Positions 1 through 36,998 of a stretch of DNA of 42,482 nt are shown piece after piece. This DNA comes from Chlamydiia bacterium (GTDB lineage: Bacteria > Chlamydiota > Chlamydiia > Chlamydiales > SM23-39), in NCBI GenBank assembly GCA_016213175.1, contig JACRBF010000039.1, positions 1 to 42,482 of the forward strand, written 5' to 3'. The translations under genes were made by a program, and so were the position numbers. The notes under the pieces are model-generated. The model was given only the letters and a program-made list of their open reading frames with translations. It did no database searches and had not been told where the DNA came from. Position 1 is the first letter of the stretch, and the number at the start of each line of letters is the position of its first letter.

Positions 1-98
1 CAATATCGACACCCAGTATATTGCCCCAGAATTTTAAATCGAAAATCGGCTCAAAAGAACCCGAAAATCGACAGAACTTTACTTTGTAGACATCCTCT
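1..98. repeat. Palindromic MITE-like element family A, partial (loop plus one arm, cut by window edge)
   Basis: Has the same central loop CAATATCGACACCCAGTATATTGCCCC as the full copy at 4165-4337. The arm ends in TTACTTTGTAGACATCCTCT, the terminal inverted repeat of that copy. Confidence 0.9.
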
Positions 99-180
99 AA
101 GAGCCGGGTATTTTGAAGAATTCCTTCTTGAAAGGGGCATCAGGTTCCTTGCCGCAACTTGACAAATAGCTCGCTTGACT

Positions 181-349
181 TATTAACCAGAGGGGTAAAC
201 AAGTGACAACTCGCTTGCTGCGGCTTCGACATATCGATCCTCCATCGTCGTCCATAGTTGTGCTATGGACTTCTCTTTCGGACCGCTGCGCTTCGATCTG
301 TTCTTGCCTCGCAGCGCGATTTGTCACTTGTTTACCCCTCTGGTTAATA
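181..349. repeat. Palindromic MITE-like element family B, full copy (169 bp)
   Basis: 29-bp perfect terminal inverted repeats TATTAACCAGAGGGGTAAACAAGTGACAA / TTGTCACTTGTTTACCCCTCTGGTTAATA and an inner hairpin GTCCATAG-TTGTG-CTATGGAC. Recurs inverted at 1514-1686 and truncated at 4383-4434. Confidence 0.9.
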
Positions 350-412
350 GTCCTGAAGGGCCGGGACTCTCGCCGAGCTGCTCGTTCAAAACTTAATTGC
401 CACTCCCTAAAA

Positions 413-474
413 TATACCGAACGTGATTCAATAATCCAGAAAATCGATGAACCATTACTTTGTAGACATCCTCT
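413..474. repeat. Chimeric element: family C left end fused to family A right end
   Basis: TATACCGAACGTGATTCAATAATC matches 25506-25529. AATAATCCAGAAAATCGATGAACC.TTACTTTGTAGACATCCTCT matches the right arm of 4165-4337. The junction is the shared 7-mer AATAATC. Confidence 0.85.
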
Positions 475-501
475 CAATGTCTGTCCGCAAAAGAGGTGCA
501 A

Positions 502-1506
502 GTGGAACAAGTTATTTTAGATCACGGAACCGGAGCGAAGCTTAGTCGGCAGCTTGTTGAGCTAATCGTCTCTGTATTGGGCGATGTCTACATTGGGGAC
601 ATGGAAGACAGCGCGATTTTGCCTATTCAAGGGAATCGGATTGCAATGACCACCGATTCTTTCGTCGTAGATCCTTTATTTTTTGGTAATGGCGATATTG
701 GAAAAATTGCGGTTTGCGGAACAGTCAATGATCTTAGTGTTATTGGAGCCAAGCCGCTTTATTTAACTCTCTCGCTAATCATCGAAGCAGGGTTTCTTAT
801 TGCAGATTTAAGACGAATCCTCGAGTCCATTCGGAGTACAGCATTGGAAGCTGGAGTGAAAATTGTCGCTGGGGATACCAAGGTTACTAGAGCTGGAGAA
901 ACAGACAAGTTATTCATTAACACCGCTGGGGTGGGCATTTTCAAGGGTTCTCCATTAAAAATGAGGAATGTACAGGTTGGCGACAAAATCATCTTAAGCG
1001 GAATGATTGGAAATCATAGCGTTCATCTTCTTTCAGTTCGAGAAGGGCTGGGCTTTGACACAGCGGTTATAAGCGATTGCGCGGCTTTAAATGGAATGAT
1101 CGATCATCTCTTTGCCGAGGTAGGTGAAAATGTGATCCAATCAATGCGCGATGTAACGCGAGGAGGACTCTCAGCTGTTCTCCATGAATATTCAAATGCG
1201 ACGGGTCAGAAAATGGAAATTTATCAAGAAGCGTTGCCGATCCAACGGGAAACGCTAATGGCTACCGAGATGCTGGGGATTAGTGCCTTGAATTTGGCTA
1301 ATGAGGGCTGTTTGTGCCTATTCGTGAAGTCTGAAAAGGTTGATCAAGTTCTCAATGCATTGAGAAAGCATCGATATGGACAAAAAGCTGTAGAAATTGG
1401 AGAAGTCTCCGCAATGTGCATCAAGTCTGTCCAAATGATCCGACGCGACGGGACCCGTGAAGAGATCGAAGAACTAGAGGGAGCGGAACTCCCACGGCTA
1501 TGCTAG
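502..1506 (+). CDS. hypE: HypE carbamoyl dehydratase ([NiFe]-hydrogenase maturation family, PurM/AIRS fold)
   Basis: Motifs HGTG, TTDSFVVDPLFF.NGDIGKIAVCGTVNDL, GDTKV, MRDVTRGG, ANEG and the C-terminal PRLC with the acceptor Cys. GTG at 502 is better spaced from the AAGAGG RBS than GTG at 496. Confidence 0.93.
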   Translation: MEQVILDHGTGAKLSRQLVELIVSVLGDVYIGDMEDSAILPIQGNRIAMTTDSFVVDPLFFGNGDIGKIAVCGTVNDLSVIGAKPLYLTLSLIIEAGFLIADLRRILESIRSTALEAGVKIVAGDTKVTRAGETDKLFINTAGVGIFKGSPLKMRNVQVGDKIILSGMIGNHSVHLLSVREGLGFDTAVISDCAALNGMIDHLFAEVGENVIQSMRDVTRGGLSAVLHEYSNATGQKMEIYQEALPIQRETLMATEMLGISALNLANEGCLCLFVKSEKVDQVLNALRKHRYGQKAVEIGEVSAMCIKSVQMIRRDGTREEIEELEGAELPRLC

Positions 1507-1513
1507 TACAGTT

Positions 1514-1686
1514 TATTAACCCGAGAGGTCAATAAGTGGCAACAAGCGGCGCTAGCGAGATGAAGTCAGATCGAAGCGCAGCGGTCCGAAGGAGAAGTCC
1601 ATAGTACAACTATAGACGACGATGGAGGATCGATATGTCGAAGCCGCAGCAAGCGAGTTGTCACTTGTTTACCCCTCTGGTTAATA
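1514..1686. repeat. Family B element, inverted copy between hypE and hypF
   Basis: Reverse complement of 181-349 over the core and one arm; the other arm has diverged (TATTAACCCGAGAGGTCAATAAGTGGCAA). Confidence 0.88.
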
Positions 1687-1695
1687 AAGCGCGTA

Positions 1696-1721
1696 GAACC
1701 CTTACTTTGTAGATATCCTCT
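1696..1721. repeat. Family A terminal fragment
   Basis: GAACCCTTACTTTGTAGATATCCTCT has one mismatch to the right end of 4165-4337. Confidence 0.8.
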
Positions 1722-1831
1722 TAATACGGATCAACTTGAGTAGCCTGCGATCGATCGATTATACGCAGCTTTCATGCTAGAGATTATCTCAAGAATTTTT
1801 GTTGCGGATCACTAAGAAATGGGAGAGCCTA

Positions 1832-4132
1832 ATGTCAGAAACCGCGTTAAATAGGATTTTCAAAATCCGAGTGACTGGCATTGTTCAGGGCGTTGGATTT
1901 CGTCCGTTTATTTATCGCCTCGCTCATGCTCATGGAGTTTTGGGTTGGGTGATCAACGACCCTGAAGGGGTTTTGATTGAAGCCCAAGGAGACGCTTCCT
2001 TAGAACAGTTTGTTGCGGCAATATCCGAACAAGCGCCTCCACTGGCCAATGTATTGAATGTGAAAATTATTGAACGGATTGCCTGTGCTAGAGCCCTACA
2101 TAAAATATTCGAGATTCGGGACACTGTCACTATAGGGAAAAAAGAGGTAGTCGTGTCTCCAGATTTTCATGTGTGTAGTGATTGCTTGCAAGAACTTCAA
2201 TCTAAAGGGAACCGACGCTATCGTTATCCATTCATAAATTGTACCAATTGTGGCCCCCGGTTTTCAATCATTCAGAAGTTGCCCTATGATCGCGCTAGCA
2301 CCACGATGTCCGTCTTCAAGATGTGCTCGGAATGCGATCAAGAATACCGAGATCCGTTCGACAGAAGGTATCATGCGCAGCCAAATGCGTGTCCTACCTG
2401 CGGTCCCAATGTGTTTTTATCGGATAGGGAAGGGATTCGTGCTCGCTCAGATCAGGCAATTCAATTCACAATTGATTTGCTTTTATCAGGAAAAATTGTT
2501 GCGATCAAAAGTGTGGGAGGATTTCACTTAACTGTTAATGCGCAAGATGGTGAGGCCGTCGCGTTGCTGCGCAAGCGTAAGCGTCGGGATGTTAAGCCTT
2601 TTGCAGTAATGGTTAACTCTGTCGAAGCCGCTGGAAAATACACTCAGCATACCAAGCAGGAAGCCGATCTACTTGAATCTGCGTCCCGTCCAATTGTGCT
2701 GCTCAAGAAAAAACAGGGAGCTCTTCCGGAGCAAATCGCTCCTCGAAATCCTAACTTGGGTCTTATGATCGCTTCTGCTCCCCTGCATTATTTGCTGCTC
2801 AACGACCCCAGAATGGATATTTTGGTGATGACTAGCGGCAACATTTCGGGTTATCCAATTGTTTATAAAAATACAACAGCTGCTCAGCTGTTTGATGTGG
2901 CAGATGCGATCTTATTCCATAACCGGGATATAGAAACTCGAGCGGATGATTCGGTGGTTCGAGTTTCCTCCTATCTCGATCTTAGGCGGTCTATTGTAAG
3001 CTTTGTAAGAAAATCCAAGGGGTATGCGCCTTACGTTCTTCATATGAAGAAGCCGTTGCACAAAATTATTGCCTATGGTGCTGAACTGAAAACAACGGTG
3101 GCTTTGTCCCAGGACAAGAGGATCTATATCGGTCCTCATATTGGAGATCTCAAAAATGATGAGACCTTTCAGTCTCATCAGAAATGCATCGAACATTTAA
3201 AATGCTTGTATGACATCGAACCGGAGTGGATAGCTTGCGATTTGCACCCGCTATTCCGCTCTGTCAGCTTCGCTCTTACAAAGGGGGAAAACAAGGTGAT
3301 TCGAGTGCAGCATCACCATGCACATATGGCAGCTTGTATGGGAGAAAATCACCTACAAGGGCCTACGATTGGCGTGATCTTAGACGGGACGGGCTATGGC
3401 TTGGATGGGACGATTTGGGGAGGAGAATTTTTAATTGGTGATTATTCATCGTTTATGCGTTCATTCCATCTGCGCCATATTCATTTGTTAGGAGGAGATA
3501 AGGCGATATCTGAACCTTTACGCATCGCTCTTGTTCTGGCTTTAGAAGCATCGGTAGCTGGACAAGTTCCTGCGTTCAAAAAATTCACAGACCAAGAAAG
3601 AGCGGTGTTTACAGCTATGCATTCTAAAGGGATTCATTCGACGCCTACCTCTAGCATGGGTCGCCTGTTTGATGGTGTAGCCGCTTTGTTGGACATCTGT
3701 GTAAAAATGGAATATGAAGCACAAGGTCCCATCGAACTCGAAGCTCTCTTGCAAAGGGATCTTTCCATGGCTGATCCGTATCCATTTAGTTTTGAAAATG
3801 AAACAATTGATTACCGTCCGCTTATCCAAACGATGGTTTACGATTTCTTGAATGGATTGGCTATTGCTGAAATCAGTCGGCGTTTTCACTCTACAATTGT
3901 ACAGATGATCGTTGCGGTTTGTATTCTGATTAGAACAAAGACCAGTATTGCTCAGGTCGTATTGAGCGGCGGGGTTTTTTTAAACGAATTTTTATTGATC
4001 AATTCGATGCACCTGTTAGAGAGTGCTGGATTTGTCCCTTATTGCCATCACACGATCCCGACTAATGACGGGGGAATTGCCCCTGGTCAAATTCTGGTGG
4101 CGGACGCGCTTTTGTCGAGCTATTCTCGATGA
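1832..4132 (+). CDS. hypF: HypF carbamoyltransferase
   Basis: Acylphosphatase domain (GIVQGVGFRPF), four CxxC zinc-finger pairs (CSDC, CTNC, CSEC, CPTC), YrdC-like region (TSGN) and Kae1-like domain (QHHHAH, DGTGYG, SSMGRLFD, LSGGVF, PTNDGG). ATG at 1832 follows GGGAGAG. Confidence 0.95.
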   Translation: MSETALNRIFKIRVTGIVQGVGFRPFIYRLAHAHGVLGWVINDPEGVLIEAQGDASLEQFVAAISEQAPPLANVLNVKIIERIACARALHKIFEIRDTVTIGKKEVVVSPDFHVCSDCLQELQSKGNRRYRYPFINCTNCGPRFSIIQKLPYDRASTTMSVFKMCSECDQEYRDPFDRRYHAQPNACPTCGPNVFLSDREGIRARSDQAIQFTIDLLLSGKIVAIKSVGGFHLTVNAQDGEAVALLRKRKRRDVKPFAVMVNSVEAAGKYTQHTKQEADLLESASRPIVLLKKKQGALPEQIAPRNPNLGLMIASAPLHYLLLNDPRMDILVMTSGNISGYPIVYKNTTAAQLFDVADAILFHNRDIETRADDSVVRVSSYLDLRRSIVSFVRKSKGYAPYVLHMKKPLHKIIAYGAELKTTVALSQDKRIYIGPHIGDLKNDETFQSHQKCIEHLKCLYDIEPEWIACDLHPLFRSVSFALTKGENKVIRVQHHHAHMAACMGENHLQGPTIGVILDGTGYGLDGTIWGGEFLIGDYSSFMRSFHLRHIHLLGGDKAISEPLRIALVLALEASVAGQVPAFKKFTDQERAVFTAMHSKGIHSTPTSSMGRLFDGVAALLDICVKMEYEAQGPIELEALLQRDLSMADPYPFSFENETIDYRPLIQTMVYDFLNGLAIAEISRRFHSTIVQMIVAVCILIRTKTSIAQVVLSGGVFLNEFLLINSMHLLESAGFVPYCHHTIPTNDGGIAPGQILVADALLSSYSR

Positions 4133-4164
4133 GTAATTTTGTCCATGAGAAAAACTGACGCATC

Positions 4165-4337
4165 AGAGGATGTCTACAAAGTAAAGTTCTGTCGATTTTC
4201 GGGTTCTTTTGAGCCGATTTTCGATTTAAATTTCTGGGGCAATATCGACACCCAGTATATTGCCCCAGAAATTTAAATCGAAAATCGGCCAAAATAATCC
4301 AGAAAATCGATGAACCCTTACTTTGTAGACATCCTCT
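4165..4337. repeat. Family A element, full copy (173 bp)
   Basis: 20-bp terminal inverted repeats AGAGGATGTCTACAAAGTAA / TTACTTTGTAGACATCCTCT and a long perfect inner stem GCCGATTTTCGATTTAAATTTCTGGGGCAATAT around an 11-nt loop. Confidence 0.92.
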
Positions 4338-4382
4338 CCAATGAGTTTCCACCAAATCGTCTCTGGGAAGCCCTTCCCAAAT

Positions 4383-4434
4383 TATTAACCAGAGGGGTAA
4401 GCAAGTGACAACTCGCTTGCTGCGGCTTCGACAT
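4383..4434. repeat. Family B left arm, truncated
   Basis: 52 bp with one mismatch to 181-232. Confidence 0.85.
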
Positions 4435-4528
4435 GAGGATTTGAATCGATTTTCTTGGGTACCTTTCAACTGGAACCACTATATACTCGAAATAAAGGTG
4501 GCTGCTAGTATAGGTTGCGAGGAAAGCC

Positions 4529-5008
4529 ATGTCCGTAAATAAGCCGCGTACGATTGACAATCTGGGGGTTGAAGCCTCAGTTCGCTATGCCAAAGATACA
4601 GAACTCTTTGAATCACGCTATATTGAAGAGTCCCGTCTTATTGCGCAGAAGACGGAGGTTCAAGTTGTCTCTCCCTCTGTCCTTTCCGAATTCGATCGGT
4701 TCTATTCGTCCGCTAAAACTGCCCCTTGGGCGCTGTTCTATCCACCGCCTGAGTATTTGTCCTACGGAAAGCCGCTTTTTTCGTATCAGTTGATCCCTTC
4801 GCTGGGCGAGTATGACAAGTTAGAGGAGGATATCGATAAGTTGGAGCAGATGGGGGATGCTTTGGAGGATGAGCAAGAAGGGCATCAGAAAGATCCTGAC
4901 CAGGAGAAGCAAAGACAGGCGCTCGTAGCGCTGTTCCGGTGTTTGAATAAGTTAGATAAGACGTTGTTGTTGATTAATGCGCGGCGCAATCAGTATCAGA
5001 GGGGATAA
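4529..5008 (+). CDS. Conserved chlamydial hypothetical protein (CT273-like), first gene of the T3SS operon
   Basis: GAGG RBS and tight coupling to the TPR chaperone and sctU. The CT273-like assignment is from recall of the sequence style and gene order. Confidence 0.7.
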   Translation: MSVNKPRTIDNLGVEASVRYAKDTELFESRYIEESRLIAQKTEVQVVSPSVLSEFDRFYSSAKTAPWALFYPPPEYLSYGKPLFSYQLIPSLGEYDKLEEDIDKLEQMGDALEDEQEGHQKDPDQEKQRQALVALFRCLNKLDKTLLLINARRNQYQRG

Positions 5009-5010
5009 AG

Positions 5011-5403
5011 ATGCCTGTGAATTGGTTGGAATTTCTGGGTTGGGATCAAGAGGGTGTGAAGGATTTGCGCTATGCCGCCTACTCCTATATTAAGCAGGGG
5101 GTTTATGACGTCGCCCTCATTTTTTTCGACGCCTTGAGCGCTCTTGCTCCGCCCTCTCCCTATGATCTTCAAACGATTGGCGCTTTGCATTTGCAGATTG
5201 GCAATGGGTTGAAGGCGCTCGACTATTTAGATCGCGCGTTGAAGGCGGACCCCTCCCATCTTCCTACGCAGTTGAATCGTTCCAAGGCACTTTTAATGCT
5301 GGGGTATAAGAGGCAAGGGCTGTTGCAAGCGATGGAACTTGCAAAAGCGGGCGATCCGGAAATTGCTTCGCAAGCCTCGGCGTTACTCCTATCCTATAAG
5401 TAG
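5011..5403 (+). CDS. TPR-containing SycD/LcrH-like T3SS chaperone (CT274-like)
   Basis: AYSYIKQGVYDVALIFFDAL and TIGALHLQIG...AL.YLDRAL TPR pattern; lies directly upstream of sctU. Confidence 0.8.
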   Translation: MPVNWLEFLGWDQEGVKDLRYAAYSYIKQGVYDVALIFFDALSALAPPSPYDLQTIGALHLQIGNGLKALDYLDRALKADPSHLPTQLNRSKALLMLGYKRQGLLQAMELAKAGDPEIASQASALLLSYK

Positions 5404-5412
5404 ATCCCCCCC

Positions 5413-8612: not shown

Positions 8613-8618
8613 AAAATT

Positions 8619-27942: not shown

Positions 27943-27961
27943 GGGAACGACTCCTGTAAAA

Positions 27962-28111
27962 GAACCCACCTCACCAATCAGGCTCAGTCGATTTTTGGTC
28001 GTTTTTTGATTTTTGTTCGGGGGGGAGTGATATCACTCCCCCGGAAAAAAAGCAAAAAAACGGCCAAAAATCCTCCGAAAAGCGAACAGCCCTGATTAGG
28101 GAGATGGGTTC
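27962..28111. repeat. Palindromic element family D (150 bp)
   Basis: Imperfect ends GAACCCACCTCACCAATCAGG / CCTGATTAGGGAGATGGGTTC, T-rich and A-rich complementary arms, perfect centre GGGGGAGTGATATCACTCCCCC. Only one copy in the window. Confidence 0.75.
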
Positions 28112-28119
28112 GAAGGCAG

Positions 28120-28219: not shown

Positions 28220-28272
28220 AATCCTATATAGATTATTACAAGTAAGTTAAATAGTTTAAGTATTGAGATATG

Positions 28273-28301
28273 TTGACGTCAATATCTTATTGGTGTAAGT
28301 T
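28273..28301 (+). promoter_or_regulatory. Putative sigma66 promoter of the Hip operon
   Basis: TTGACG-17 bp-TAAGTT, 22 bp before the ATG at 28324. Confidence 0.55.
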
Positions 28302-28323
28302 GAAGTCAAAAATCAGAGCTTTG

Positions 28324-29235
28324 ATGGAAGAGCATTGTTTTTGCTGTTTGCTGGCTTTAGGAAAAGAAAGTGCTCACGGCCTGCACCAACGATGTTTTCG
28401 CAACTGGTTTGGAGTGGATGGTTTGCATGCTCCTTTTCGATTAACTATGAAAACCGCGGGGAATAGCAATGATCCGAAAGCAGAACTCAACTCCAGTTTT
28501 TTCCATGGAAAATTCAGGAAATATTCCGCCAAATTAGGGGAGTCTAGTTACATCATTAAAGTACGGCAATCGTCTTTTCCCGATCTTCCTGCCATGGAGT
28601 TTTTATGTAATCAAATCGCAAAAAAACTGGGCATAAATATTCCCGATTTTTATCTCATTCGATTAGAGGGAGAGCCGGCCTTTGTTTCCAAAAATTTCAT
28701 GGAACAATACCCAGGAGCCAATTTGGTGCACCTGTACCGATTCTTAGGAGAGCAACCCTTTGATTTAAAAACAATTTTACAAGTGATTTCCGATCACACA
28801 GGAAAATCTGCAGATATTGAACAATTTATCAAATTGTGCCTCTTTGATGTCTTCATAGGTAACCATGATCGACACGGTAGGAATTTGGCCCTGATCCAGA
28901 CGGCTCAGGGTAAAATGTTATCTCCCATCTATGACAATCCTTCTTGTTTAGGCATTGAGGAGGAAGGGTTTTTAAAGGCGGTTTTAGAACCGTGTGGGAA
29001 AATTCATTCCTCTCGTTCTAAAGAACCGAAAATGCGTGAATATGCTCTTGATTTTTGCGAGATGGGATACGAAGAGCTTGTCGTGCAAGTCTACCTTTCT
29101 ATTGCACTTCAAGAGATTGTGGATTTAGTGAGCGCAAGTTTTATTTCCCCTACAAGAAAAATGGCATTTTCTAAGCTCTTAACGAGAAGATACCAGGAAC
29201 TCAAAGAGGTGGCTGATGCAGATTCCGACCGATAA
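28324..29235 (+). CDS. HipA/HipT-family Ser/Thr kinase toxin (core kinase only)
   Basis: YIIK, EFLC.QIA..LGI, FDVFIGNHDRHGRN catalytic loop, LSPIYD. N-terminal CxxC...HxxC and no HipA N-terminal subdomain. Confidence 0.88.
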   Translation: MEEHCFCCLLALGKESAHGLHQRCFRNWFGVDGLHAPFRLTMKTAGNSNDPKAELNSSFFHGKFRKYSAKLGESSYIIKVRQSSFPDLPAMEFLCNQIAKKLGINIPDFYLIRLEGEPAFVSKNFMEQYPGANLVHLYRFLGEQPFDLKTILQVISDHTGKSADIEQFIKLCLFDVFIGNHDRHGRNLALIQTAQGKMLSPIYDNPSCLGIEEEGFLKAVLEPCGKIHSSRSKEPKMREYALDFCEMGYEELVVQVYLSIALQEIVDLVSASFISPTRKMAFSKLLTRRYQELKEVADADSDR

Positions 29236-29851
29236 AGTGCCATCTGTGCTCGTCTACTTGGAACGAAGAAAAAGTCGCAAGTTCGTTGGCGAATTAAAGT
29301 ATAATTTTAGAAAACATTTATATGTTTTCGTCTATGATAAAGCGTACTTGCGTGCGAATCTCATTCCATTGGGACCAGAATTGCCGTTGAGTCCAAGAAA
29401 ATTCCTGTCTTCCTCTCTGTTTGAGTCATTTATCGATCGACTTCCTTCGCGGGAAAATCCTGCATATCAAGAATATTGCGCAGCAGAGAATATTGAAGTC
29501 ACTGAACAAGATCCTTTTATTTTGCTCACTACTATTGGGAAAAGAGGTCCCTCTTCCTTCATTTTTGAACGACAAAAGCAAGCCTTCTTAGGAGCTATAG
29601 AATTGAAAGGTTTTCGTAAAAAACTTGGATTAACAACACGAGAATTTGCTATCGGATTTTCTATTGCCACAAAAACGCTTAGCTCTATCGAGAATGGACG
29701 TTCAGACGGGAGAGATGCCATGAAACGACTTGAGCTGTACATCCGCTTCCCTGAAGTGGCCCTTTTTGAATTTCGGAGAAACTGCGCTGCGATCCATCGA
29801 GATAAGCGGAAACAGGTAGAACATATTCTCTCGACTTGGCCACTTTTTTAG
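29216..29851 (+). CDS. Putative antitoxin: HipS-like (HipA N-terminal) domain fused to C-terminal XRE helix-turn-helix
   Basis: VGEL......YVFVYD.AY...PLGPELPL......SSSLFESF.DRLP, then LKGFRKKLGLTTREFA....IATKTLSSIENG; overlaps the kinase stop by 20 bp. Confidence 0.8.
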   Translation: MQIPTDKVPSVLVYLERRKSRKFVGELKYNFRKHLYVFVYDKAYLRANLIPLGPELPLSPRKFLSSSLFESFIDRLPSRENPAYQEYCAAENIEVTEQDPFILLTTIGKRGPSSFIFERQKQAFLGAIELKGFRKKLGLTTREFAIGFSIATKTLSSIENGRSDGRDAMKRLELYIRFPEVALFEFRRNCAAIHRDKRKQVEHILSTWPLF

Positions 29852-29931
29852 CCTGCTGGCCTCGGCAGATTTGCTCTCTCCGAGAGTAAATCTGCCGAGG
29901 CCAGCAGGCTAAAAAAGTGGCCAAGTCGAGA
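29829..29931. repeat. 103-bp near-perfect hairpin (element E)
   Basis: 50-bp arms with a single G/T mismatch and a 3-nt loop (TCC). Confidence 0.92.
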
Positions 29932-30014
29932 TTCTTTCAGAATATTCGAGTTGCCAGAAATAGGGCTATTCTGTCATGTATTCGTAGCAATTCTTAAGGA
30001 AGGGGCCTAAAGCG

Positions 30015-30224
30015 GTGAATGTGGCAGCAATTTCTCGGATGAAGAAAGCTTTAGGTGGGAAATATACCTGCTATGTACTCATCGCCTGTTCTACGCCTGC
30101 AGAAAACGGAAATATGGACGTAGAGATGCACTTCGAAGGCGATGAGACTCTCGCTGCTTTTCTCGTAGAAAATGCCAGTCAAGCATTCGAAGAGCGGCAG
30201 GGACTGCAGGAATCCGGTTGTTAG
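30015..30224 (+). CDS. Small hypothetical protein, probably conserved in chlamydiae
   Basis: AAGGAAGGGG RBS; CYVLIAC...G.MDVEMHFEGD..LAAFLVE looks like a globular protein; co-oriented with the next gene. Confidence 0.65.
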   Translation: MNVAAISRMKKALGGKYTCYVLIACSTPAENGNMDVEMHFEGDETLAAFLVENASQAFEERQGLQESGC

Positions 30225-30252
30225 TTAGTGGCGTTTTTTCTATGATCGGGCT

Positions 30253-31617: not shown

Positions 31618-32705
31618 TAGAGAAAAGCACAAATGAATCGGTTCTGTGGCAGGTGGTGGGTCCCATCGCCCTTATCGCAGCCTTTGCTATGGCGCCCATA
31701 GGCGTCGCTTCCGTTCCCCTAAAAATGACCAGTTGCCTGGGATTATTTCTCAGCGCACGCTGGCAGATGAGGGGGTGTTTCGCCGCGCTTCTTACCTTGT
31801 TCGTGGCAGGCACTTTATCGCATGTCTTAGCAGACGGACACCATCTATGGCGCTTGTGTCTAGAATTCTCTTCCGCGCTCTCGTTTGTGATTACGGCGCT
31901 CTCCTTTACCCAAATCGGACAAGATCTCTCCTCTCTTGCCTCTCAGACCCAGGCGCAGCAAGCGGCGATCCGTAATCTGGAAGAGGAGATGGCCTCGATC
32001 CATGCTAATGCCACCGAACGGCAAATTGTCTCCACGGCAAAAATTGAAGAGCTTCAGAAGCGGATTGAAGAGGTAGAGTCGGAGAAGGCGTCGCTGGAAA
32101 TTTTGAATGATGTCTTACGCAAGACAAATGCAGGCTACTACGTAGAAAAAAAAGCGCTTGAGGAGAGCTTTTCTCAAGAAAAACAAAGGCTTGCTCAGCT
32201 TGTCTTGGTAGCCGAAGAGCAAAGACAAGAAATTGCTGTACTGCAACAAATTAGTGCTACGACTGCAAATAACGATCTTTTGCACCAAGAGCGTGAGGCG
32301 CTCATGGAGCAATTGACTCAAGCGGAAGAGAAGATCCGATCTCTCGCACTCCTAGAGAGCAAACACAGGCAGCTCAAGGAACAATTCGAAGAAAAAAACA
32401 AAGTGCTGCAAGAGACCCGGGCGCTCTTATTTCACTCGGATACCGCTCTGCAATCTTTCCAAATTGAAAAGGCGCAAAAAGAGCTGAGGTTCGATCCCTT
32501 ATTTGAAGCGTTGAGCAAGGAGCTCTCTGTTCAGGAGCAAGAGACGTCTCACTTGCAGGAAGAAAATAAGGAGCTGGAGTGTCTTGTTACCTGTCTTACG
32601 CACCTGGCAGGGCAGCCCTCCTTGGAAGAAATTCTCCGAGAGTCGCTTGTTCCTAAGAGAAAGAAAAAAACGAAAAAACCGGCCCAGCAAGACCTACTGT
32701 TTTAG
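31614..32705 (+). CDS. Membrane-anchored coiled-coil protein (CT850-like position next to map)
   Basis: N-terminal hydrophobic helices, long Glu/Gln/Leu heptad region and basic tail; convergent with map. Confidence 0.75.
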   Translation: MIEKSTNESVLWQVVGPIALIAAFAMAPIGVASVPLKMTSCLGLFLSARWQMRGCFAALLTLFVAGTLSHVLADGHHLWRLCLEFSSALSFVITALSFTQIGQDLSSLASQTQAQQAAIRNLEEEMASIHANATERQIVSTAKIEELQKRIEEVESEKASLEILNDVLRKTNAGYYVEKKALEESFSQEKQRLAQLVLVAEEQRQEIAVLQQISATTANNDLLHQEREALMEQLTQAEEKIRSLALLESKHRQLKEQFEEKNKVLQETRALLFHSDTALQSFQIEKAQKELRFDPLFEALSKELSVQEQETSHLQEENKELECLVTCLTHLAGQPSLEEILRESLVPKRKKKTKKPAQQDLLF

Positions 32706-33569
32706 TACACCAGTTAAGACTTCATATCCTGTTTCTGTGATGAGGAGAGTGTGCTCCCATTGGGCAGAGGGTCTGCCGTCTTTAGTTCTCACGGTCCAGA
32801 GATCGATCGGATCGATCAACCCCTCGCGCACCCCTCCATTAATCATGGGTTCAATCGTAAAGGTCATTCCTGGTACGAGTAAGATATCGAGTTTGTTATA
32901 ATGATGGGGGATTTCTGGGGGTTCATGAAAGGCGACGCCGATCCCATGCCCTACATACTGATTGACAACAGAGCATTTTTGGGTAGCTGCATACTCTTCG
33001 ATGGCCTTCCCGATATGCCAAATAGGAACGCCCGGTTTACAGACGGCCATGGCGCGCTCCAAGCATTCATGCGAGACGGTGACTACGCGCTGTTTCTCCT
33101 CAGCAATCTTCCCGATGCATACCATGCGGCTGCAATCGCCGAAATGATCGTCAACGATAGAAGAGACGTCGATATTCATGATATCCCCCTCTTGGAGGGG
33201 GCGATCGTCTGGGATTCCGTGGCAGATCACCTCATTTAAAGAGGTACAGATTGTTTTCGGATAGGGGGGATCTCCATAGCCCAGATCGGCCGGAATAGCG
33301 CCAGCTTCTTGATGGAGTCTACGGGAAAGGAGATCAAGTTCGTTAGTTGTAACCCCTTTTTTCGCAGCAAGGCATAAAGCATCAAGAATCTGGGCGGTCA
33401 CACGGCATGCTCTACGGATTTTTGCAATCTGCTCAGGAGTCTTCAGTACGATCCCATAGCGTCTGAGATATTCCTTGGATAAGGGATTAGAGGTAGATAG
33501 ATCGGGATAATGGCACTTTTTCCATTTTTTTCCGCTTCCACACCAACAGGGATCATTTCGCTCAATCAT
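32694..33569 (-). CDS. map: Methionine aminopeptidase type I with N-terminal SEC-C motif
   Basis: RNDPCWCGSGKKWKKCH; CTSLNEVICHGIP, NIDVS, GDCSRM, GHGIG..FHE, FTIEPMIN, SAQWEHT. Confidence 0.96.
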   Translation of the reverse strand: MIERNDPCWCGSGKKWKKCHYPDLSTSNPLSKEYLRRYGIVLKTPEQIAKIRRACRVTAQILDALCLAAKKGVTTNELDLLSRRLHQEAGAIPADLGYGDPPYPKTICTSLNEVICHGIPDDRPLQEGDIMNIDVSSIVDDHFGDCSRMVCIGKIAEEKQRVVTVSHECLERAMAVCKPGVPIWHIGKAIEEYAATQKCSVVNQYVGHGIGVAFHEPPEIPHHYNKLDILLVPGMTFTIEPMINGGVREGLIDPIDLWTVRTKDGRPSAQWEHTLLITETGYEVLTGVLKQ

Positions 33570-33603
33570 AGAGTAAGGGATTGTTTAACAGTCCCTAAGT
33601 AGT

Positions 33604-34344
33604 CTACAACAAATCATACCTTACATGAAAGAGGGAGAGGCCGTGAGGTGGCGCCGTAACCCCTGCCTGTGTACGATCTTTCTCTATGAAAATTTTTTCT
33701 ATCGCCTCTTCAGGCAGTTTATTGCAGCCAACATAGACAAGCGTGCCGACGATGGTGCGTGCCATTTTATAGAGGAATCGATCTCCGCAGAGGGCGATTT
33801 GCAGCCTCTCTTCAGGGAGTTGAGAAATGGCAATACGATTTATGGTACAGAATGGATTGGGATGATCCGCGTTTGCAAAGGCAGAAAAATCGTGGCGGCC
33901 TAAGAAATAGTTCGACGCGCTCACCATACGCGTCAGATCGAGAGGTCTTTGGACATGCCATGAATAGAGGAAGTGGAGAGGAGACTGAACGGGTCCGAGA
34001 CAAAGATGATAGTGATACTCCTTTTCCTTGGCCTGTAAAGTAGGATGAAAATCTAACGGCGCTCTTTCTACACGGTGGATGCGGATGGTATCAGGGAGGC
34101 AAGCATTGAGCCCTTTTTGCAACCGAATCTCGTCCCATTCTTTCTGTAAACACAAAGAAGCGACTTGACCCTCTGCATGGACGCCTCGATCAGTGCGGCT
34201 TGCCCCATCGGGTAATTGAGGCTCCTGCGTAACCTGTGATACTGCTTTTTCAAGCAACTCTTGGACGCTCGGCCCGCTTTTTGTTTTTTGCCAGCCGAAA
34301 TAAGGCGTGCCGTCATAGGAGAGAGTAATTTTATAGCGGTTCAT
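33604..34344 (-). CDS. truA: tRNA pseudouridine(38-40) synthase
   Basis: YDGT.YFGWQ, ASRTDRGVHA.GQ, HDFSAF, FLYKMAR, APPHGL. Confidence 0.95.
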   Translation of the reverse strand: MNRYKITLSYDGTPYFGWQKTKSGPSVQELLEKAVSQVTQEPQLPDGASRTDRGVHAEGQVASLCLQKEWDEIRLQKGLNACLPDTIRIHRVERAPLDFHPTLQAKEKEYHYHLCLGPVQSPLHFLYSWHVQRPLDLTRMVSASNYFLGRHDFSAFANADHPNPFCTINRIAISQLPEERLQIALCGDRFLYKMARTIVGTLVYVGCNKLPEEAIEKIFIEKDRTQAGVTAPPHGLSLFHVRYDLL

Positions 34345-34933
34345 GGAGATGAGCGATGAAGGCGGTGACGCCGCTGAGGAACATCTGGATAGCGATAAGG
34401 GTTAGGATGAGGCCCATGAGTCTTTCCAAAGCAGTAATGCCCCTCCAGCCTAAAATTTTTTTTAAAAAAGAAGAGGCGAGCAGAATGAGTAAAGAAGCTC
34501 CCCAGGCGAACAAAATGGCACCCATCATGACCCAATCGCTTGTCTCTTGGCGGGCATAGATCATTACGGCGGCCAGAACACCAGGGCCTGCAACCAGGGG
34601 TACCGCCAAGGGGACGATGAATGGCTCGCTTGTGTGAGGGAGCGCTTCATTGGGGTCGTGCGGGGCTGGGAAAATCATTTTTAGGCAGAGAAGAAATAGG
34701 ATAATGCCGCCGGCGATTTGGATGGTGTCTTCCCGTACATTGAGAAAACGCATCAGACCGTCTCCTACAAAAGTAAAAAGGATAATAATGAAGAGGGCGA
34801 TAAGCAATTCTCTGACAATGACTTTCCGTTGGCGCTCTGGATTGAGCCCCTTCAAAAAGCTAATGTAGAAGGGGATGTTTCCGATGGGATCCATCAATAG
34901 AAAAAGGGAGAGAGCAATCGAAAATAGTCCCAT
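34331..34933 (-). CDS. MarC family integral membrane protein
   Basis: LMDPIGNIP, IAGGIILF, FIVPLAVPLVAGPG, ERLMGLIL. Start assigned to ATG 34933. Confidence 0.92.
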   Translation of the reverse strand: MGLFSIALSLFLLMDPIGNIPFYISFLKGLNPERQRKVIVRELLIALFIIILFTFVGDGLMRFLNVREDTIQIAGGIILFLLCLKMIFPAPHDPNEALPHTSEPFIVPLAVPLVAGPGVLAAVMIYARQETSDWVMMGAILFAWGASLLILLASSFLKKILGWRGITALERLMGLILTLIAIQMFLSGVTAFIAHLHEPL

Positions 34934-34965
34934 AGACCCGATTTTGAACTCGCTTGTGTATAAAA

Positions 34966-35997
34966 TCAATGGGCTGTTGTGGAAATGCGGCGCCACAAGG
35001 AGTTCATGAACGATTTTTGCTCCGTTGTAAGAGGGGATAGGATGATGAGGCAATCGCTATTTTTCATGAAGGCAGATTTTGTCCAATTGGCGGAGCCTGC
35101 GATGAGGATCTGTTCGTCGATGTAGGCGAATTTGTGGTGGAGGAGCTGCGTTCCTTGGCTATGGAGAATCTTGACGCCCGTCCTTTGTAGCGCTTGAAGG
35201 GTTTGCGCGCTGGCTCCGAGTCCTGAATGCATATCGATGACCACAGTGACGTCGACGCCCCTTTGATGAGCGAGAACGAGTTCATCTGCAAGTCCCGCGT
35301 GGGTGAAGGTAAAGAGAGCGATCCGAATTGATTTTCGGGCAGTTTTCAGTCTTTTTTTGAGCTCTAGGAGACTATGTGCTTTGGGGTCTGGCAAGATCCA
35401 AAGATCGACATTTTGCCCTCCGATCAGGGTGTGCAGGTGACTGGATGGGCAAAGTGCCTTTTCTTGCAGAAAGGAAGCGATCCGTTGGTTTGCAAACCCG
35501 ATGACTAGATTGTCATGCATGCGTAAGGACTGGGTGGTCATATTTGCGGAACCGAGGAAGACCATTTCCTGATCTACAATTAAAATTTTTTGGTGCATGA
35601 AACCCGATTGCCGAATGGGGGAGACGGCACATCCAAGCAGCACTTGGCGTAAATTAGGAGAGCCGTTGGGATCGTAATAGACGGTGACGGGAATTTGCTG
35701 ATTGGCTTTGCGAAGAAGCGCTTTGAGGATAGCAGGATCGCTGAGGCCAAACATCACGAGATGGAGGGATTTAGTCGATTGTTGAATTGCCTCAAGAAGG
35801 GTGAGAGTGAGATCTTGCTGGCATTGATTGGAGTAGAGTTTAGGCGGGGCGTCGGGGGTGGGCAAGATTGGGGTAACGGAGCGCCAGACAAACCAGCTTA
35901 CAAAAGCCAGGCAAGCCAGTAGGAGGAGGGGGAGACGCTTAGAAGATTTTTTTTGAGATAGGGGACGCCTCTGAGGGAGAGATACCTTTCTAGACAA
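34966..35997 (-). CDS. Phospholipase D superfamily protein (two HKD motifs)
   Basis: MHQKILIVD...GSAN and LHHKFAYID...GSANWT; N-terminal membrane anchor. Confidence 0.92.
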   Translation of the reverse strand: MSRKVSLPQRRPLSQKKSSKRLPLLLLACLAFVSWFVWRSVTPILPTPDAPPKLYSNQCQQDLTLTLLEAIQQSTKSLHLVMFGLSDPAILKALLRKANQQIPVTVYYDPNGSPNLRQVLLGCAVSPIRQSGFMHQKILIVDQEMVFLGSANMTTQSLRMHDNLVIGFANQRIASFLQEKALCPSSHLHTLIGGQNVDLWILPDPKAHSLLELKKRLKTARKSIRIALFTFTHAGLADELVLAHQRGVDVTVVIDMHSGLGASAQTLQALQRTGVKILHSQGTQLLHHKFAYIDEQILIAGSANWTKSAFMKNSDCLIILSPLTTEQKSFMNSLWRRISTTAH

Positions 35998-36009
35998 AGA
36001 GGACGCCTT

Positions 36010-36058
36010 AAAAAAGTAGAGCCAGTTCTCTCATTGCACGCAATGGGAGAACTGCCTC
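36010..36058 (-). terminator. Rho-independent terminator after rpmB
   Basis: Stem CAGTTCTC.CATTGC / GCAATG.GAGAACTG followed on the minus strand by TACTTTTTT. Confidence 0.7.
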
Positions 36059-36059
36059 A

Positions 36060-36335
36060 TTAAACTCGCGCGCCTTGTTTGCGCATCTGACGGACTGCGG
36101 CGTTTGCCCCTTTTTTGTCGATGGTGCGTAGGGCAGCCGTTGACAGTCTCAAGGTTACAAAGCGCTTCTCCTCAGGAATCCAGAGTCTTTTGGTGACGAG
36201 ATTAGGCAGGAATCTGCGATTCGTGCAGCCGGTGATTTTCAGACCGATCCCTTTCTTCTTTTTCGCGATGCCGCGCAGAGCATATTTGCGTCCAGAGCTT
36301 GATCTGCGCCCTGTGAGTGTACAAGTTCTAGGCAT
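36060..36335 (-). CDS. rpmB: 50S ribosomal protein L28
   Basis: C.LTG, RGIAKKKKGIGLKITG, RRFLPNL, STAALRTIDK. Confidence 0.95.
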   Translation of the reverse strand: MPRTCTLTGRRSSSGRKYALRGIAKKKKGIGLKITGCTNRRFLPNLVTKRLWIPEEKRFVTLRLSTAALRTIDKKGANAAVRQMRKQGARV

Positions 36336-36428
36336 AGGAAAACCTCTTGAATAAAGAAGTACAGTACCAAGAAGGTGGGTTTTGCGAAACAGAAATATTT
36401 TTTTGAGGCTTTCTCGTTGCTGCGAAGG

Positions 36429-36458
36429 TGCTGCGAACGGCTTGCGCCGTTCGCAGCA
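36429..36458 (-). other. GC-rich stem-loop downstream of the SWIB gene
   Basis: TGCTGCGAACGGC-TTGC-GCCGTTCGCAGCA: perfect 13-bp stem, GCAA tetraloop on the transcribed strand, no U-tract. Confidence 0.6.
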
Positions 36459-36468
36459 GGGGAGAGAT

Positions 36469-36759
36469 TTATTTTTTGATATGCTTGCTTAAAGCGCCGG
36501 CGAGTTTCAACATATCGATCGGCTTTTTCCCGATCACCTCTGCCAGTTTTTTATCGGGAACAATGAGGCGTCTATTTTTCGTATCTTGGCATTTGTGCCT
36601 CTTGATGTATTCCCAGAATTTCTTTACCACCTGAGGACGGGTCAAGCTTTTTGCCCCTACGATCTCTTGGAGCTGTTCGGATAGGGAATAGGTGAGCTGA
36701 GTCAGTCCTGATTTTCTTTTAGTTTTAGGCTTTGTGGTCTTTGTTTTCTTTCTTTTCAT
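36469..36759 (-). CDS. Stand-alone SWIB/MDM2 domain protein
   Basis: LSEQLQEIVG...LTRPQVVKKFWEYIK.H.CQD.KN.R.I.PD.KL..V, with a Lys-rich N-terminal tail. Confidence 0.93.
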   Translation of the reverse strand: MKRKKTKTTKPKTKRKSGLTQLTYSLSEQLQEIVGAKSLTRPQVVKKFWEYIKRHKCQDTKNRRLIVPDKKLAEVIGKKPIDMLKLAGALSKHIKK

Positions 36760-36829
36760 GACAGTATTTCCTCTTGGCTGGATTTCAAAGGGTCTCCTAT
36801 GTGAGCTGATGCTCGATGCGTAGCTACCC

Positions 36830-36998
36830 TAACCCACATTTCTCACACATTCCGGGAAAATCTGAACGATTTGTCACGCCGTCTTTCATAAATCGCTTGT
36901 CGTCAATATTGCGGCAATATTGACCTTCTCGCGATTTTCGAAATCCGGCATAACATCTCGTCCACCTTTTCTCCGGTCTGTGTGAGAAATGCGGGCTA
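36830..36998. repeat. Palindromic element family F (169 bp)
   Basis: Ends TAACCCACATTTCTCACACA / TGTGTGAGAAATGCGGGCTA (2 mismatches), CCGG.AAA / TTT.CCGG pairing, centre GTCAATATTGC-G-GCAATATTGAC. Only one copy in the window. Confidence 0.78.

What the first reader, a model, noticed from the sequence alone, without database searches (positions are those of the whole stretch)
1..36998. Six palindromic element types, mostly 150-173 bp, sharing an architecture and mixing parts
Seen: intergenic space repeatedly contains long hairpin-forming elements with different termini but similar size. These are A (173 bp, 4165-4337, plus 4 partial copies), B (169/173 bp, plus 1 partial), C (165 bp, plus 2 derivatives), D (150 bp), F (169 bp) and the shorter hairpin E (103 bp). 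B, C and F begin and end with TA. No transposase is in the window. Established: MITEs and Rickettsia palindromic elements (RPEs) have this size and hairpin form. Inference: this may be an undescribed chlamydial set of RPE/MITE-like elements that cluster at hotspots and exchange arms. I cannot tell from the window whether it has already been described.
Basis: partly seen in the sequence, partly recalled or inferred. Interest (0 to 1): 0.85.

Follow-up and report, generated by a model that had tools for sequence, protein, structure and literature searches.

The report
Hairpin mini-transposons in a chlamydial genome
The six palindromic repeats are real small non-coding transposons of several different kinds, and the commonest one carries a hairpin core that is shared, unusually well conserved, by about a quarter of the sampled chlamydial genomes.

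Summary
Five are multi-copy in this 1.19 Mb chlamydial MAG. D is single-copy and looks like a decayed relative of A.

They are MITEs (miniature inverted-repeat transposable elements), but not one kind. A duplicates a 3-bp TNA target (IS5/IS1031-like ends). B, C and F are TA-flanked (IS630-like). E duplicates 5 bp and sits inside a gene's 3' end.

Nested copies give true empty sites. Hybrids such as C-left/A-right and B-left/H-right confirm "mixing parts".

No transposase gene lies in the window. However, its last 140 bases are the end of a 1145-bp, TA-flanked insertion sequence (IS). That IS ends 24 contig ends and was left out of the assembly.

The less ordinary result concerns A's 128-bp core:
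- It carries four or five unrelated terminal pairs with different target duplications.
- It occurs in 95 of 401 sampled genomes of the phylum and 0 of 301 of a neighbouring phylum.
- It is 88-90% identical in genomes where sctV DNA is only 69-75% identical.

I found no published description. This scan has reported such chlamydial MITEs before, including on another piece of this genome.

The parts
1..98 (.). Partial A1 copy. The contig starts inside the element.
   Evidence: Bases 18-98 are 99% complementary to 4165-4245. Also seen by blastn.
181..349 (+). B element, 169 bp, TA-flanked.
   Evidence: z -13.1. 5 full copies in the genome. 4 of 4 terminus pairs are TA-flanked.
414..474 (+). Hybrid element: left terminus of C joined to the right end of A1 across the shared heptamer AATAATC.
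   Evidence: Sequence read. Scored as a C/A1 terminus pair 59 nt apart.
1514..1687 (-). Second B copy, inverted. One arm is of the B type and one is of a variant type (TATTAACCCGAGAGGTCAATA).
   Evidence: I1; z -6.3.
1688..1720 (-). A1 terminal fragment abutting the second B copy.
   Evidence: (D1).
4165..4337 (+). Full A1 element (proper 4166-4336). It has GAG...CTC ends, a 128-bp core at 4187-4314, and 3-nt flanks TCA/TCC.
4382..4485 (+). Hybrid element: the left 53 nt of B joined to the right ~50 nt of an H-type element, TA at both ends.
   Evidence: Bases 4382-4434 are 98% identical to B. Bases 4435-4483 align to the right end of H with score 27. It does not fold as a hairpin (z -1.9).
13668..13697 (.). 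Mini-C: a 30-nt hairpin made of the two C termini only.
   Evidence: (z -6.5). Four C-C terminus pairs of 25-37 nt exist in the genome.
13790..13852 (+). Right 63 nt of an A1 element. Its end overlaps the stop codon of the starch synthase gene on the minus strand.
25506..25670 (+). C element, 165 bp, TA-flanked, in a divergent intergenic region.
   Evidence: z -21.1. 23 full copies. 29 of 32 terminus pairs are TA-flanked.
27969..28118 (+). D: a single-copy, weaker hairpin. Its arms are related to the A core.
   Evidence: I13; z -5.7; A4-D z 14.7, A3-D z 13.6. No full copy in 40 relatives.
29825..29935 (+). E: a 101-bp perfect fold-back derivative of a 182-bp family, flanked by the 5-bp duplication ATTCT. 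It is inserted in the 3' end of ORF 29216-29851 and supplies that ORF's last six codons and its stop.
36830..36998 (+). F element, 169 bp, TA-flanked.
   Evidence: z -10.5. 6 full copies. 89-90% identical copies in G011.
42343..42482 (+). Right end of a 1145-bp insertion sequence (31-nt terminal repeat including a TA). The contig breaks inside it.

Best explanation
The elements are non-autonomous transposons (MITEs) that transposases of full-length insertion sequences move in trans. Several unrelated families live side by side in this small chlamydial genome. They use at least three kinds of transposase, told apart by the target duplication each leaves.

**Families**
- A belongs to a superfamily with GAG...CTC ends and a 3-bp TNA duplication. 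From memory, that is the signature of the IS1031 group of the IS5 family.
- Sister subfamilies carry the same 128-bp core between other terminal pairs. One of them, A2, duplicates ANT. Its ends match a 915-bp IS5-family IS found in two other chlamydial genomes.
- B, C and F, and the abundant family H outside the window, are TA-flanked. They are most likely moved by IS630-type transposases.
- A 1145-bp TA-flanked IS of that kind is present in roughly 13-35 copies, but it was lost from the assembly because it is repeated.
- E leaves a 5-bp duplication, and its transposase is unknown.
- D is a decayed, single-copy relative of A.

**Shape, clustering and hybrids**
- The hairpin shape comes from terminal inverted repeats plus a palindromic interior.
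- Elements cluster because they insert at TA or TNA sites at the ends and loops of resident elements.
- Mixed elements arise from nested insertion followed by deletion or recombination. In one case the join lies across 7 nt of microhomology.

**Shown and inferred**
- Shown: repeats, hairpins, target duplications, nested insertions, hybrids, the IS ends, and the distribution in other genomes.
- Inferred: which transposase moves which family, and why the A core is so conserved.
For: **Mobility**
- H is inserted in two A-type elements with a TA duplication (C48 and C35).
- An A3 copy is inserted in the right end of an F copy with a TGA duplication (C35).
- E is inserted in a gene's 3' end. Orthologues in G017 and G014 run on past the insertion point (...ILSRK...). 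Removing the element and one ATTCT restores an open C-terminus.

**Flank identity**

| Family | Identical flanks | Motif | Shifted control |
|---|---|---|---|
| A1 | 7 of 8 | TNA | 1 |
| A3 | 11 of 15 | TNA | 0 |
| A2 | 12 of 13 | ANT in 11, ATG in 1 | 0 |
| E | 7 of 12 | 5 nt | 0 |
| C | 29 of 32 | TA | 2 |
| H | 28 of 30 | TA | 1 |
| B | 4 of 4 | TA | 0 |
| F | 7 of 9 | TA | 1 |

**IS partners**
- The G038 IS (L121, 915 bp) has the terminus AGACCTCTTTCGAAACTA, which matches the A2 terminus at 16 of 18 positions.
- Its two ORF halves score 80.3 and 129.7 bits on NF033581 (IS5 family).
- 11 of 11 distinct ends in G038 are preceded by ANT.
- A similar IS lies in G036.

**The genome's own IS**
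- The 31-nt terminus occurs 26 times in G000, 24 of them exact.
- Of these, 24 lie within 140 nt of a contig end and point outwards (10 left and 14 right ends). One more is an internal remnant in C9.
- A 1145-bp contig in run X1 has depth 700.9, against 18.6-26.1 for the flanking unique contigs.
- Its first 10 terminal bases match 9 of 10 of the terminus of a G006 IS. That IS's transposase scores 159.9 bits on NF033545 (IS630).

**Abundance and clustering**
- 371 pieces make up 41.4 kb, or 3.47% of the assembly.
- 61 of 310 gaps between pieces are 5 bp or less, against a random mean of 15.1 and a maximum of 27.
- 13 of 25 IS ends directly abut an H end.
Against: - No transposase of any tested family is in the assembly: PF01797, PF13358, PF01609 and NF033581 each give 0 matches in G000. 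Every element-to-transposase link therefore rests on other genomes or on target signatures.
- The 1145-bp IS could not be read. Its IS630 assignment rests on TA flanks, size and 9 of 10 terminal bases. A 22-aa N-terminal peptide gave no significant match.
- No autonomous partner was found for A1/A3, C, E or F in any locus examined.
- For B, C and F the flanking TA never varies, so it could be part of the element rather than a duplication. Only H has an empty site.
- B shares just TATTAACCAG with an IS630-type IS of G036.
- In ordinary MITEs the ends are the conserved part. Here the interior is, and this model does not explain that.
Confidence: 0.85

Rival explanations
1. The A core (and perhaps other cores) is kept by the host, or by the element, for a function of its own. 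Candidates are a protein-binding site, a terminator, or a processed RNA hairpin. On this view it is mobile only incidentally, as has been argued for ERIC or domesticated Correia elements.
For: - The core is 88-90% identical in G337, G297, G370 and G259, where sctV DNA is 75, 73, 69 and 72% identical.
- Core identity has a floor near 82% whatever the genome or terminus type.
- 42 stem pairs are 97.4% paired, against 89.9% in shuffles. 16 pairs show compensatory change, against a shuffle mean of 7.3 and maximum of 10.
- A constant asymmetric bulge and the repeated CGATTTTCG motif are conserved.
Against: - Copies show target duplications and sit at unrelated sites, including inside other elements and in gene ends.
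- Many copies are truncated or internally deleted.
- No Rfam family matches above threshold. Only sub-threshold hits to generic miRNA hairpin models were seen.
- The shuffle control does not remove relatedness among copies, so the covariation is weak evidence.
Confidence: 0.2
2. The high cross-lineage identity reflects recent horizontal spread of the MITEs and their ISs among chlamydiae that share hosts, not selection on the core.
For: - The non-coding A core and F are more alike between genera than sctV is.
- Presence is patchy within one family: 37 of 68 genomes in f1, and mixed within genus g7 at 3 of 5.
- The same terminus types recur in different genera.
- The core is confined to one order of the phylum and is absent from 301 genomes of a neighbouring phylum.
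Against: - No vehicle was found. There was no match in 72,556 plasmid records.
- Identity between genomes (about 82%) is no higher than between subfamilies within one genome (about 81%). That fits old subfamilies as well as it fits transfer.
- No tree reconciliation was done.
Confidence: 0.3
3. They are REPIN-like or IS200/IS605-type hairpin elements moved as single strands by a tyrosine (HUH) transposase, not cut-and-paste MITEs.
For: - Long hairpins suit single-strand transposition.
- The same genome holds a true element of that kind, G. It has 7 copies at 99-100% identity, is always inserted after TTCAT or TGAT, ends in TTCAC, and leaves no duplication.
- Y1 transposases occur in 20 of the 40 relatives searched, 18 of them over the family's cut-off.
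Against: - A, E and H leave target duplications, which HUH transposition does not.
- PF01797 gives 0 matches in G000.
- The elements have terminal inverted repeats rather than subterminal hairpins next to a fixed target word.
Confidence: 0.05
4. The A core is itself a separate small transposon that inserted into the centre of several different mini-palindromes. The 'different termini' would then be older host elements rather than swapped ends.
For: Terminus-only mini forms exist: A3 49 nt, A1 58 and 78 nt.
Against: - No duplication flanks the core at any terminus/core junction.
- No solo core without outer termini was seen among 42 full copies.
- The 49-nt A3 form still holds a few core bases at its centre, so it is a deletion product.
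Confidence: 0.07

Closest known systems
MITEs derived from IS5-family insertion sequences (IS1031 group: GAG ends, TNA duplication; ISL2-like group: ANT duplication). The group signatures are recalled from ISfinder, not tested here.
   Same: - A1 and A3 have GAG...CTC ends and a 3-bp TNA duplication.
- A2 has an ANT duplication.
- The A2 terminus matches, at 16 of 18 positions, a 915-bp IS whose transposase matches NCBIfam's IS5-family model.
   Different: - Only the outer ~18 nt resemble the IS. The interior is unrelated to it.
- The same interior is shared between subfamilies with different ends and different duplications.
- No cognate transposase is in this assembly.
IS630/Tc1-mariner-type bacterial MITEs, such as RUP of Streptococcus pneumoniae and Correia elements (CREE/NEMIS) of Neisseria (recalled).
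   Same: - Size of 100-170 bp, terminal inverted repeats, and TA at both ends.
- Insertion next to genes and into each other.
- A TA duplication is shown for H.
- A resident TA-flanked 1145-bp IS is present.
   Different: - There is no sequence similarity to those elements.
- These are near full-length palindromes.
- The TA duplication is not proven for B, C and F themselves.
- No promoter, IHF-site or RNase III evidence was sought or found.
ERIC/IRU elements of enterobacteria (recalled).
   Same: An imperfect palindrome of about 127 bp whose non-coding sequence is strikingly conserved across genera. The A core shows the same puzzle.
   Different: - ERIC has no known transposase, and its ends are not exchangeable.
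- The A-core elements show clear target duplications and subfamily-specific terminal repeats.
Rickettsia palindromic elements (RPE).
   Same: - Palindromic repeats of 100-150 bp in an obligate intracellular bacterium.
- E alters a protein's C-terminus, much as RPEs add peptide segments.
   Different: - RPEs are known for in-frame insertions inside genes, and target duplications are not their defining trait.
- Nothing tested here links the two by sequence.
- Rfam gave no match.
REPIN-RAYT systems and IS200/IS605-derived PATEs.
   Same: - Hairpin repeats that persist over long periods.
- The G element elsewhere in this genome fits the PATE pattern.
   Different: The six window elements have terminal repeats and duplications. 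No Y1 transposase is in the assembly.

Membership tests
MITE (generic) | Short, non-coding, with terminal inverted repeats. | tested here: met
   The elements are 101-173 bp. Inverted termini are seen. None of the 30 window ORFs scanned with Pfam matches a transposase family; the short ORFs that overlap the elements themselves were not scanned.
MITE (generic) | Target-site duplication on insertion. | tested here: met
   Flank identity: A1 7 of 8, A3 11 of 15, A2 12 of 13, E 7 of 12. Paralogous empty sites exist for H (TA) and A3 (TGA). For B, C and F only an invariant TA is seen.
MITE (generic) | Many dispersed copies with unrelated flanks. | tested here: met
   The exception is D, which has 1 copy.
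MITE (generic) | Termini shared with an autonomous IS. | tested here: inconclusive
   - Met for A2, which is not in the window: 16 of 18 positions with the G038 IS.
- Partial for B: 10 nt shared with an IS of G036.
- Partial for H: 19 of 29 positions with the genome's own IS, counted by eye on the sequences.
- Not found for A1, C, E or F.
IS5 family, IS1031-group derivative (element A) | 3-bp TNA duplication and GAG termini (definition recalled). | tested here: met
IS5 family, IS1031-group derivative (element A) | A cognate IS1031-type transposase with matching ends. | tested here: not met
   None in G000. Only decayed NF033580 fragments without matching ends were found in 4 of 5 relatives. 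The sampling was limited.
IS630/Tc1-mariner derivative (B, C, F) | TA target duplication. | tested here: inconclusive
   TA flanks both ends in B 4 of 4, C 29 of 32 and F 7 of 9 pairs. No empty site exists for these three. It is shown only for H.
IS630/Tc1-mariner derivative (B, C, F) | An IS630-family transposase in the genome. | tested here: inconclusive
   PF13358 gives 0 matches in the assembly. However, a 1145-bp TA-flanked IS is missing from the assembly, and its family could not be read.
REPIN-RAYT | An associated RAYT (Y1/HUH) gene and no target duplication. | tested here: not met
   PF01797 gives 0 matches in G000. Duplications are present.
Rickettsia palindromic elements | Sequence membership in an RPE family, and in-frame insertion within genes. 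| not testable with these tools
   No RPE models are on hand. Rfam gave nothing above threshold. One insertion (E) replaces a C-terminus rather than adding an in-frame segment.

The most novel reading that the evidence does not exclude
The 128-bp A core is a portable hairpin module. It has been fitted repeatedly with different ~20-bp terminal 'adaptors', so that different IS5-group transposases can move it (TNA, ANT and 2-bp targets).

The module, not the ends, is what is conserved: about 82-90% identity across at least six chlamydial families, where sctV DNA is about 70% identical. Either the core itself is needed for mobilisation or for some host function, or non-coding DNA still passes between obligate intracellular lineages.
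Probability: 0.35. Interest if true: 0.7.

Novelty: new variant of a known kind. Interest (0 to 1): 0.5.

Why it matters
**Repeat load.** Chlamydial genomes are usually described as repeat-poor. That picture comes from the pathogenic Chlamydiaceae. The Waddlia genome paper counted only repeats over 200 bp (passages of PMC2878342). In this genome, at least 3.5% of a 1.19 Mb assembly is small hairpin transposons of several classes. A further roughly 1-3% (the unassembled IS) is missing because of them.

**Practical consequences.**
- These repeats break assemblies: 24 of 122 contig ends here are one IS.
- They hide transposases from MAG gene inventories.
- They rewrite gene ends.

**Open question.** The same non-coding core occurs in about a quarter of sampled Chlamydiota and is better conserved than a core secretion gene. 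That makes it possible to test how much DNA still moves between lineages of obligate intracellular bacteria, or whether a MITE interior can itself be under selection.

Tried and rejected
- **First self-comparison.** It timed out and was rerun with a longer word.
- **Named relatives.** The sctV neighbourhoods of six named relatives (L001-L004, L015, L029) held no element copies and no hyp genes, so they gave no empty sites.
- **The IS terminus.** It was not found in 40 relatives or in the metagenome contig collection.
- **The IS N-terminus.** A 22-aa N-terminal reading of the IS gave no significant match to IS630 transposases of relatives.
- **Partner for the TNA-type ends.**
  - An apparent A1-like terminus beside a G040 transposase was spurious. 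That IS has other ends.
  - The multi-copy IS of G259 is an IS903-like element with 9-bp duplications and is unrelated.
  - NF033580 fragments in G003, G012, G014 and G017 have no matching ends.
- **Rfam.** At the gathering threshold it found only a tRNA. At E up to 1 it gave only sub-threshold hits: generic miRNA hairpin models and one Phe_leader hit (34.2 bits against a gathering score of 55).
- **Plasmids.** No match for A.
- **Sequencing runs.**
  - No RNA holder is listed.
  - The runs are kept as contigs, and laying them showed no filled/empty polymorphism. The joints seen connect different repeat copies.
  - The small shares in X2 and X3 were not interpreted.
- **Core as a separate transposon.** I considered that the core is a separate transposon nested in mini-palindromes and rejected it (no junction duplication, no solo cores).
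- **Supplementary files.** Those of the chlamydial genome papers could not be opened and may list repeats.


Full report
**Setting**

The window is a whole contig (C23) of a 1.19 Mb, 61-contig MAG, 86% complete.
- Its genes are chlamydial: sctU, sctV, a CopN-like gene, DUF5399, starch synthase, an autotransporter, and a HypE-like/HypF pair.
- By SctV, the nearest named records are an uncultured MAG (80% over a partial match), 'Chlamydiae bacterium SM23_39' (75%) and 'Parachlamydiales bacterium Bin_65_10' (72%).
- The only run that holds most of the stretch is labelled a groundwater metagenome.

**Observation**

| Element | Fold z-score |
|---|---|
| A | -20.3 |
| B | -13.1 |
| Second B copy | -6.3 |
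| C | -21.1 |
| D | -5.7 |
| E | -21.3 |
| F | -10.5 |

The listed partial copies are real.
- A self-comparison of the genome shows 4.3-5.2% of bases repeated, in 351 intervals. Nearly all are under 210 bp and none exceeds about 650 bp.
- With a 16-entry library I count 371 pieces, 41.4 kb, 3.47% of the assembly.

| Family | Loci | Full copies |
|---|---|---|
| A1 | 21 | 7 |
| A2 | 40 | 15 |
| A3 | 42 | 10 |
| A4 | 15 | 3 |
| B | 8 | 5 |
| C | 54 | 23 |
| D | 1 | 1 |
| E family | 22 | 12 |
| F | 15 | 6 |
| H (not in the window) | 66 | 29 |

**They are mobile**

Flank comparison gives identical short direct repeats on both sides.

| Family | Identical flanks | Motif | Shifted control |
|---|---|---|---|
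| A1 | 7 of 8 | TNA | 1 |
| A3 | 11 of 15 | TNA | 0 |
| A2 | 12 of 13 | ANT in 11, ATG in 1 | 0 |
| A4 | 5 of 6 | 2 nt | 1 |
| E | 7 of 12 | 5 nt; the other 5 differ by 1-2 nt | 0 |

C (29 of 32), H (28 of 30), B (4 of 4) and F (7 of 9) are flanked by TA on both sides.

Nested copies supply real empty sites.
- H sits inside two A-type elements. Removing it and one TA restores the A loop.
- An A3 copy sits in the right end of an F copy, with TGA on both sides.
- In the window, E (29830-29930) is flanked by ATTCT on both sides and lies inside the 3' end of ORF 29216-29851.
- The orthologues in G017 and G014 align up to the insertion point and then continue ...ILSRK.... The G000 protein ends ...ILSTWPLF*, with a tail encoded by the element. 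Removing the element and one ATTCT reopens the frame to ...ILSEYSSCQK*.

**Not one class**

- Pairwise alignment against shuffles groups A1-A4 with D (z 6-15 for D), C with two other families (z 22 and 5.8), and F weakly with H (z 5.1). B, E and G stand alone.
- With the duplications, this gives at least three transposition signatures among the window's six types: TNA (A), TA (B, C, F) and 5 bp (E).
- Another class occurs elsewhere in the genome, the element G. It is 111 nt, with 7 copies at 99-100% identity. It is always inserted after TTCAT or TGAT, ends in TTCAC, and leaves no duplication. This is the pattern of IS200/IS605-derived elements.

**Transposases**

None of PF01797, PF13358, PF01609 or NF033581 matches the assembly. 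This absence is an assembly artefact.
- A 31-nt terminus that starts the window's last 140 nt occurs 26 times in G000, 24 of them exact.
- Of these, 24 lie within 140 nt of a contig end and point outwards (10 left and 14 right ends). One more is an internal remnant in C9.
- The left end carries an ATG about 70 nt in.
- Run X1 holds a 1145-bp contig with this terminus, at depth 700.9 against 18.6-26.1 for the unique neighbours. In X3 the same-length contig has the terminus at both ends.
- So a 1145-bp, TA-flanked IS is present in roughly 13-35 copies. The upper figure assumes that all the depth belongs to this organism.
- Its first ten terminal bases match 9 of 10 of the terminus of a G006 IS. 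That IS's transposase scores 159.9 bits on NCBIfam's IS630 model.
- By my own count on the sequences, H's terminus matches the IS terminus at 19 of 29 positions.
- Four contig ends also carry the C-terminus of an IS30-like transposase.

For the A superfamily:
- A 915-bp IS in G038 has a terminus that matches A2 at 16 of 18 positions.
- Its two ORF halves score 80.3 and 129.7 bits on the IS5-family model NF033581.
- 11 of 11 distinct ends in G038 are preceded by ANT.
- G036 has a similar IS.
- No partner was found for the TNA-type ends.
- An IS630-type IS of G036 starts TATTAACCAG like B, but diverges after that.

**Mixing parts**

Three things are real.
- **Adjacency and nesting.**
  - 61 of 310 gaps between pieces are 5 bp or less, against a random mean of 15.1 and a maximum of 27 in 200 trials.
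  - 13 of 25 IS ends abut an H end, and 3 abut a C end.
- **Hybrids.**
  - Ten terminus pairs of unlike families lie 59-169 nt apart.
  - The window has two. Bases 414-474 join the C left terminus to the A1 right end across the shared AATAATC. Bases 4382-4485 join the B left half to an H-type right half.
  - The second B copy has one arm of each of two B variants.
  - Each family also has symmetric internal-deletion forms, for example the 30-nt mini-C and the 101-bp E.
- **Modular structure.**
  - One 128-bp interior is attached to five kinds of terminus. Counting termini, these are A1 22, A2 45, A3 47, A4 4 and A4b 19.
  - The different termini go with different duplications.
  - The C interior likewise recurs with other termini, both in this genome and in G021.

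**The A core beyond this genome**

- Full A matches occur in 12 of 40 relatives, including 10 of 24 genera of the same family.
- The core alone matches 95 of 401 sampled genomes of the phylum, all in one order: f1 37 of 68, f7 40 of 90, f22 6 of 46, f23 4 of 35, plus a few more.
- It matches 0 of 301 genomes of the phylum of a Puniceicoccales MAG.
- It is present in the genome of 'Parachlamydiales bacterium Bin_65_10' and was not found in that of SM23_39.
- In 40 copies fetched from ten other genera, the core is flanked by many terminus types. These again show TNA or 2-nt repeats.

Conservation of the core against a coding gene:

| Genome | A-core identity | sctV DNA identity |
|---|---|---|
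| G337 | 90% | 75% |
| G297 | 89% | 73% |
| G370 | 88% | 69% |
| G259 | 88% | 72% |

- F is 89-90% identical in G011, where sctV is 72%.
- The coding DNA next to E is 66-68% identical to G014 and G017.

Mean core identity by class:

| Terminus type | Genome | Mean identity |
|---|---|---|
| Same | Same | 0.889 |
| Different | Same | 0.809 |
| Same | Different | 0.829 |
| Different | Different | 0.821 |

The stem shows 97.4% pairing against 89.9% in shuffles. 16 pairs are compensatory, against a shuffle mean of 7.3 and maximum of 10. That control does not remove relatedness among copies.

**Reading**

The mundane part is secure. These are MITEs of IS5-like, IS630-like and unknown parentage, in a genome whose ISs fell out of the assembly.

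The unusual part is that the interior is conserved and the ends are exchangeable, which is the reverse of the usual MITE. Three explanations fit the data, and I could not separate them:
- selection on the core;
- continued horizontal spread among chlamydiae;
- old subfamilies kept alive by continuing transposition.

**Literature**

Four searches and two 'find' look-ups turned up no description of MITEs or palindromic mobile elements in Chlamydiae.
- Searches: Chlamydiae with MITE; Anoxychlamydiales; genus names with MITEs; chlamydia, palindromic elements and IS630.
- Look-ups, passages only: PMC3733652 and PMC2878342.
- Supplements were closed.

This scan has reported such elements before, on another piece of this genome and in other chlamydial genomes. 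I treated those notes as leads only.

Noticed in passing
window 42343-42482: The contig ends inside a 1145-bp, TA-flanked insertion sequence that is missing from the assembly. 24 contig ends of the genome finish the same way.
   Followed up: yes
G000 C20:5331-5441, C4, C6, C17, C28, C33, C60 (not in the window): A 111-nt element with three small hairpins has 7 copies at 99-100% identity. It is always inserted after TTCAT or TGAT, ends in TTCAC, and leaves no duplication. This is the pattern of an IS200/IS605-derived element, yet no Y1 transposase is in the assembly.
   Followed up: partly
G000 C43:1-140, C30:1-121, C46:28794-28937, C6:23521-23656: Four contig ends carry the same reading frame, ending ...LNNRPRKVLQFRTPIEVF. 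From memory this looks like the C-terminus of an IS30-family transposase, so a second unassembled IS is likely.
   Followed up: no
window 181-4434: The HypE-like and HypF genes are bracketed by three B copies, at 181-349, 1514-1687 (inverted, 98% over 121 nt) and 4382-4434. The layout resembles a composite transposon or a recombination scar around hydrogenase-maturation genes.
   Followed up: no
window 28270-29851: A HipA C-terminal kinase-domain ORF is followed by an ORF with a HipA N-terminal domain and what looks, by eye, like a helix-turn-helix tail. This would be a split, reordered HipA-type toxin-antitoxin arrangement. The second ORF's C-terminus was rewritten by the E insertion.
   Followed up: partly
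window 40216-40258: A 43-51-nt repeat with 7 copies in the genome lies between the convergent ClpB-like and ankyrin-repeat genes. Its nature is unknown.
   Followed up: no
window 4240-4262, 25580-25596, 36903-36925; H copies elsewhere: The hairpin tips of otherwise unrelated families (A, C, F, H) all carry CAATAT(T) motifs. F and H share GTCAATATT..CAATATTGAC. Several families also repeat AAATCGA/CGATTTTCG words in their arms.
   Followed up: partly
window 13851-13853: The stop codon of the starch synthase gene (minus strand) is formed by the last base of an A1 fragment plus the two flanking bases.
   Followed up: no
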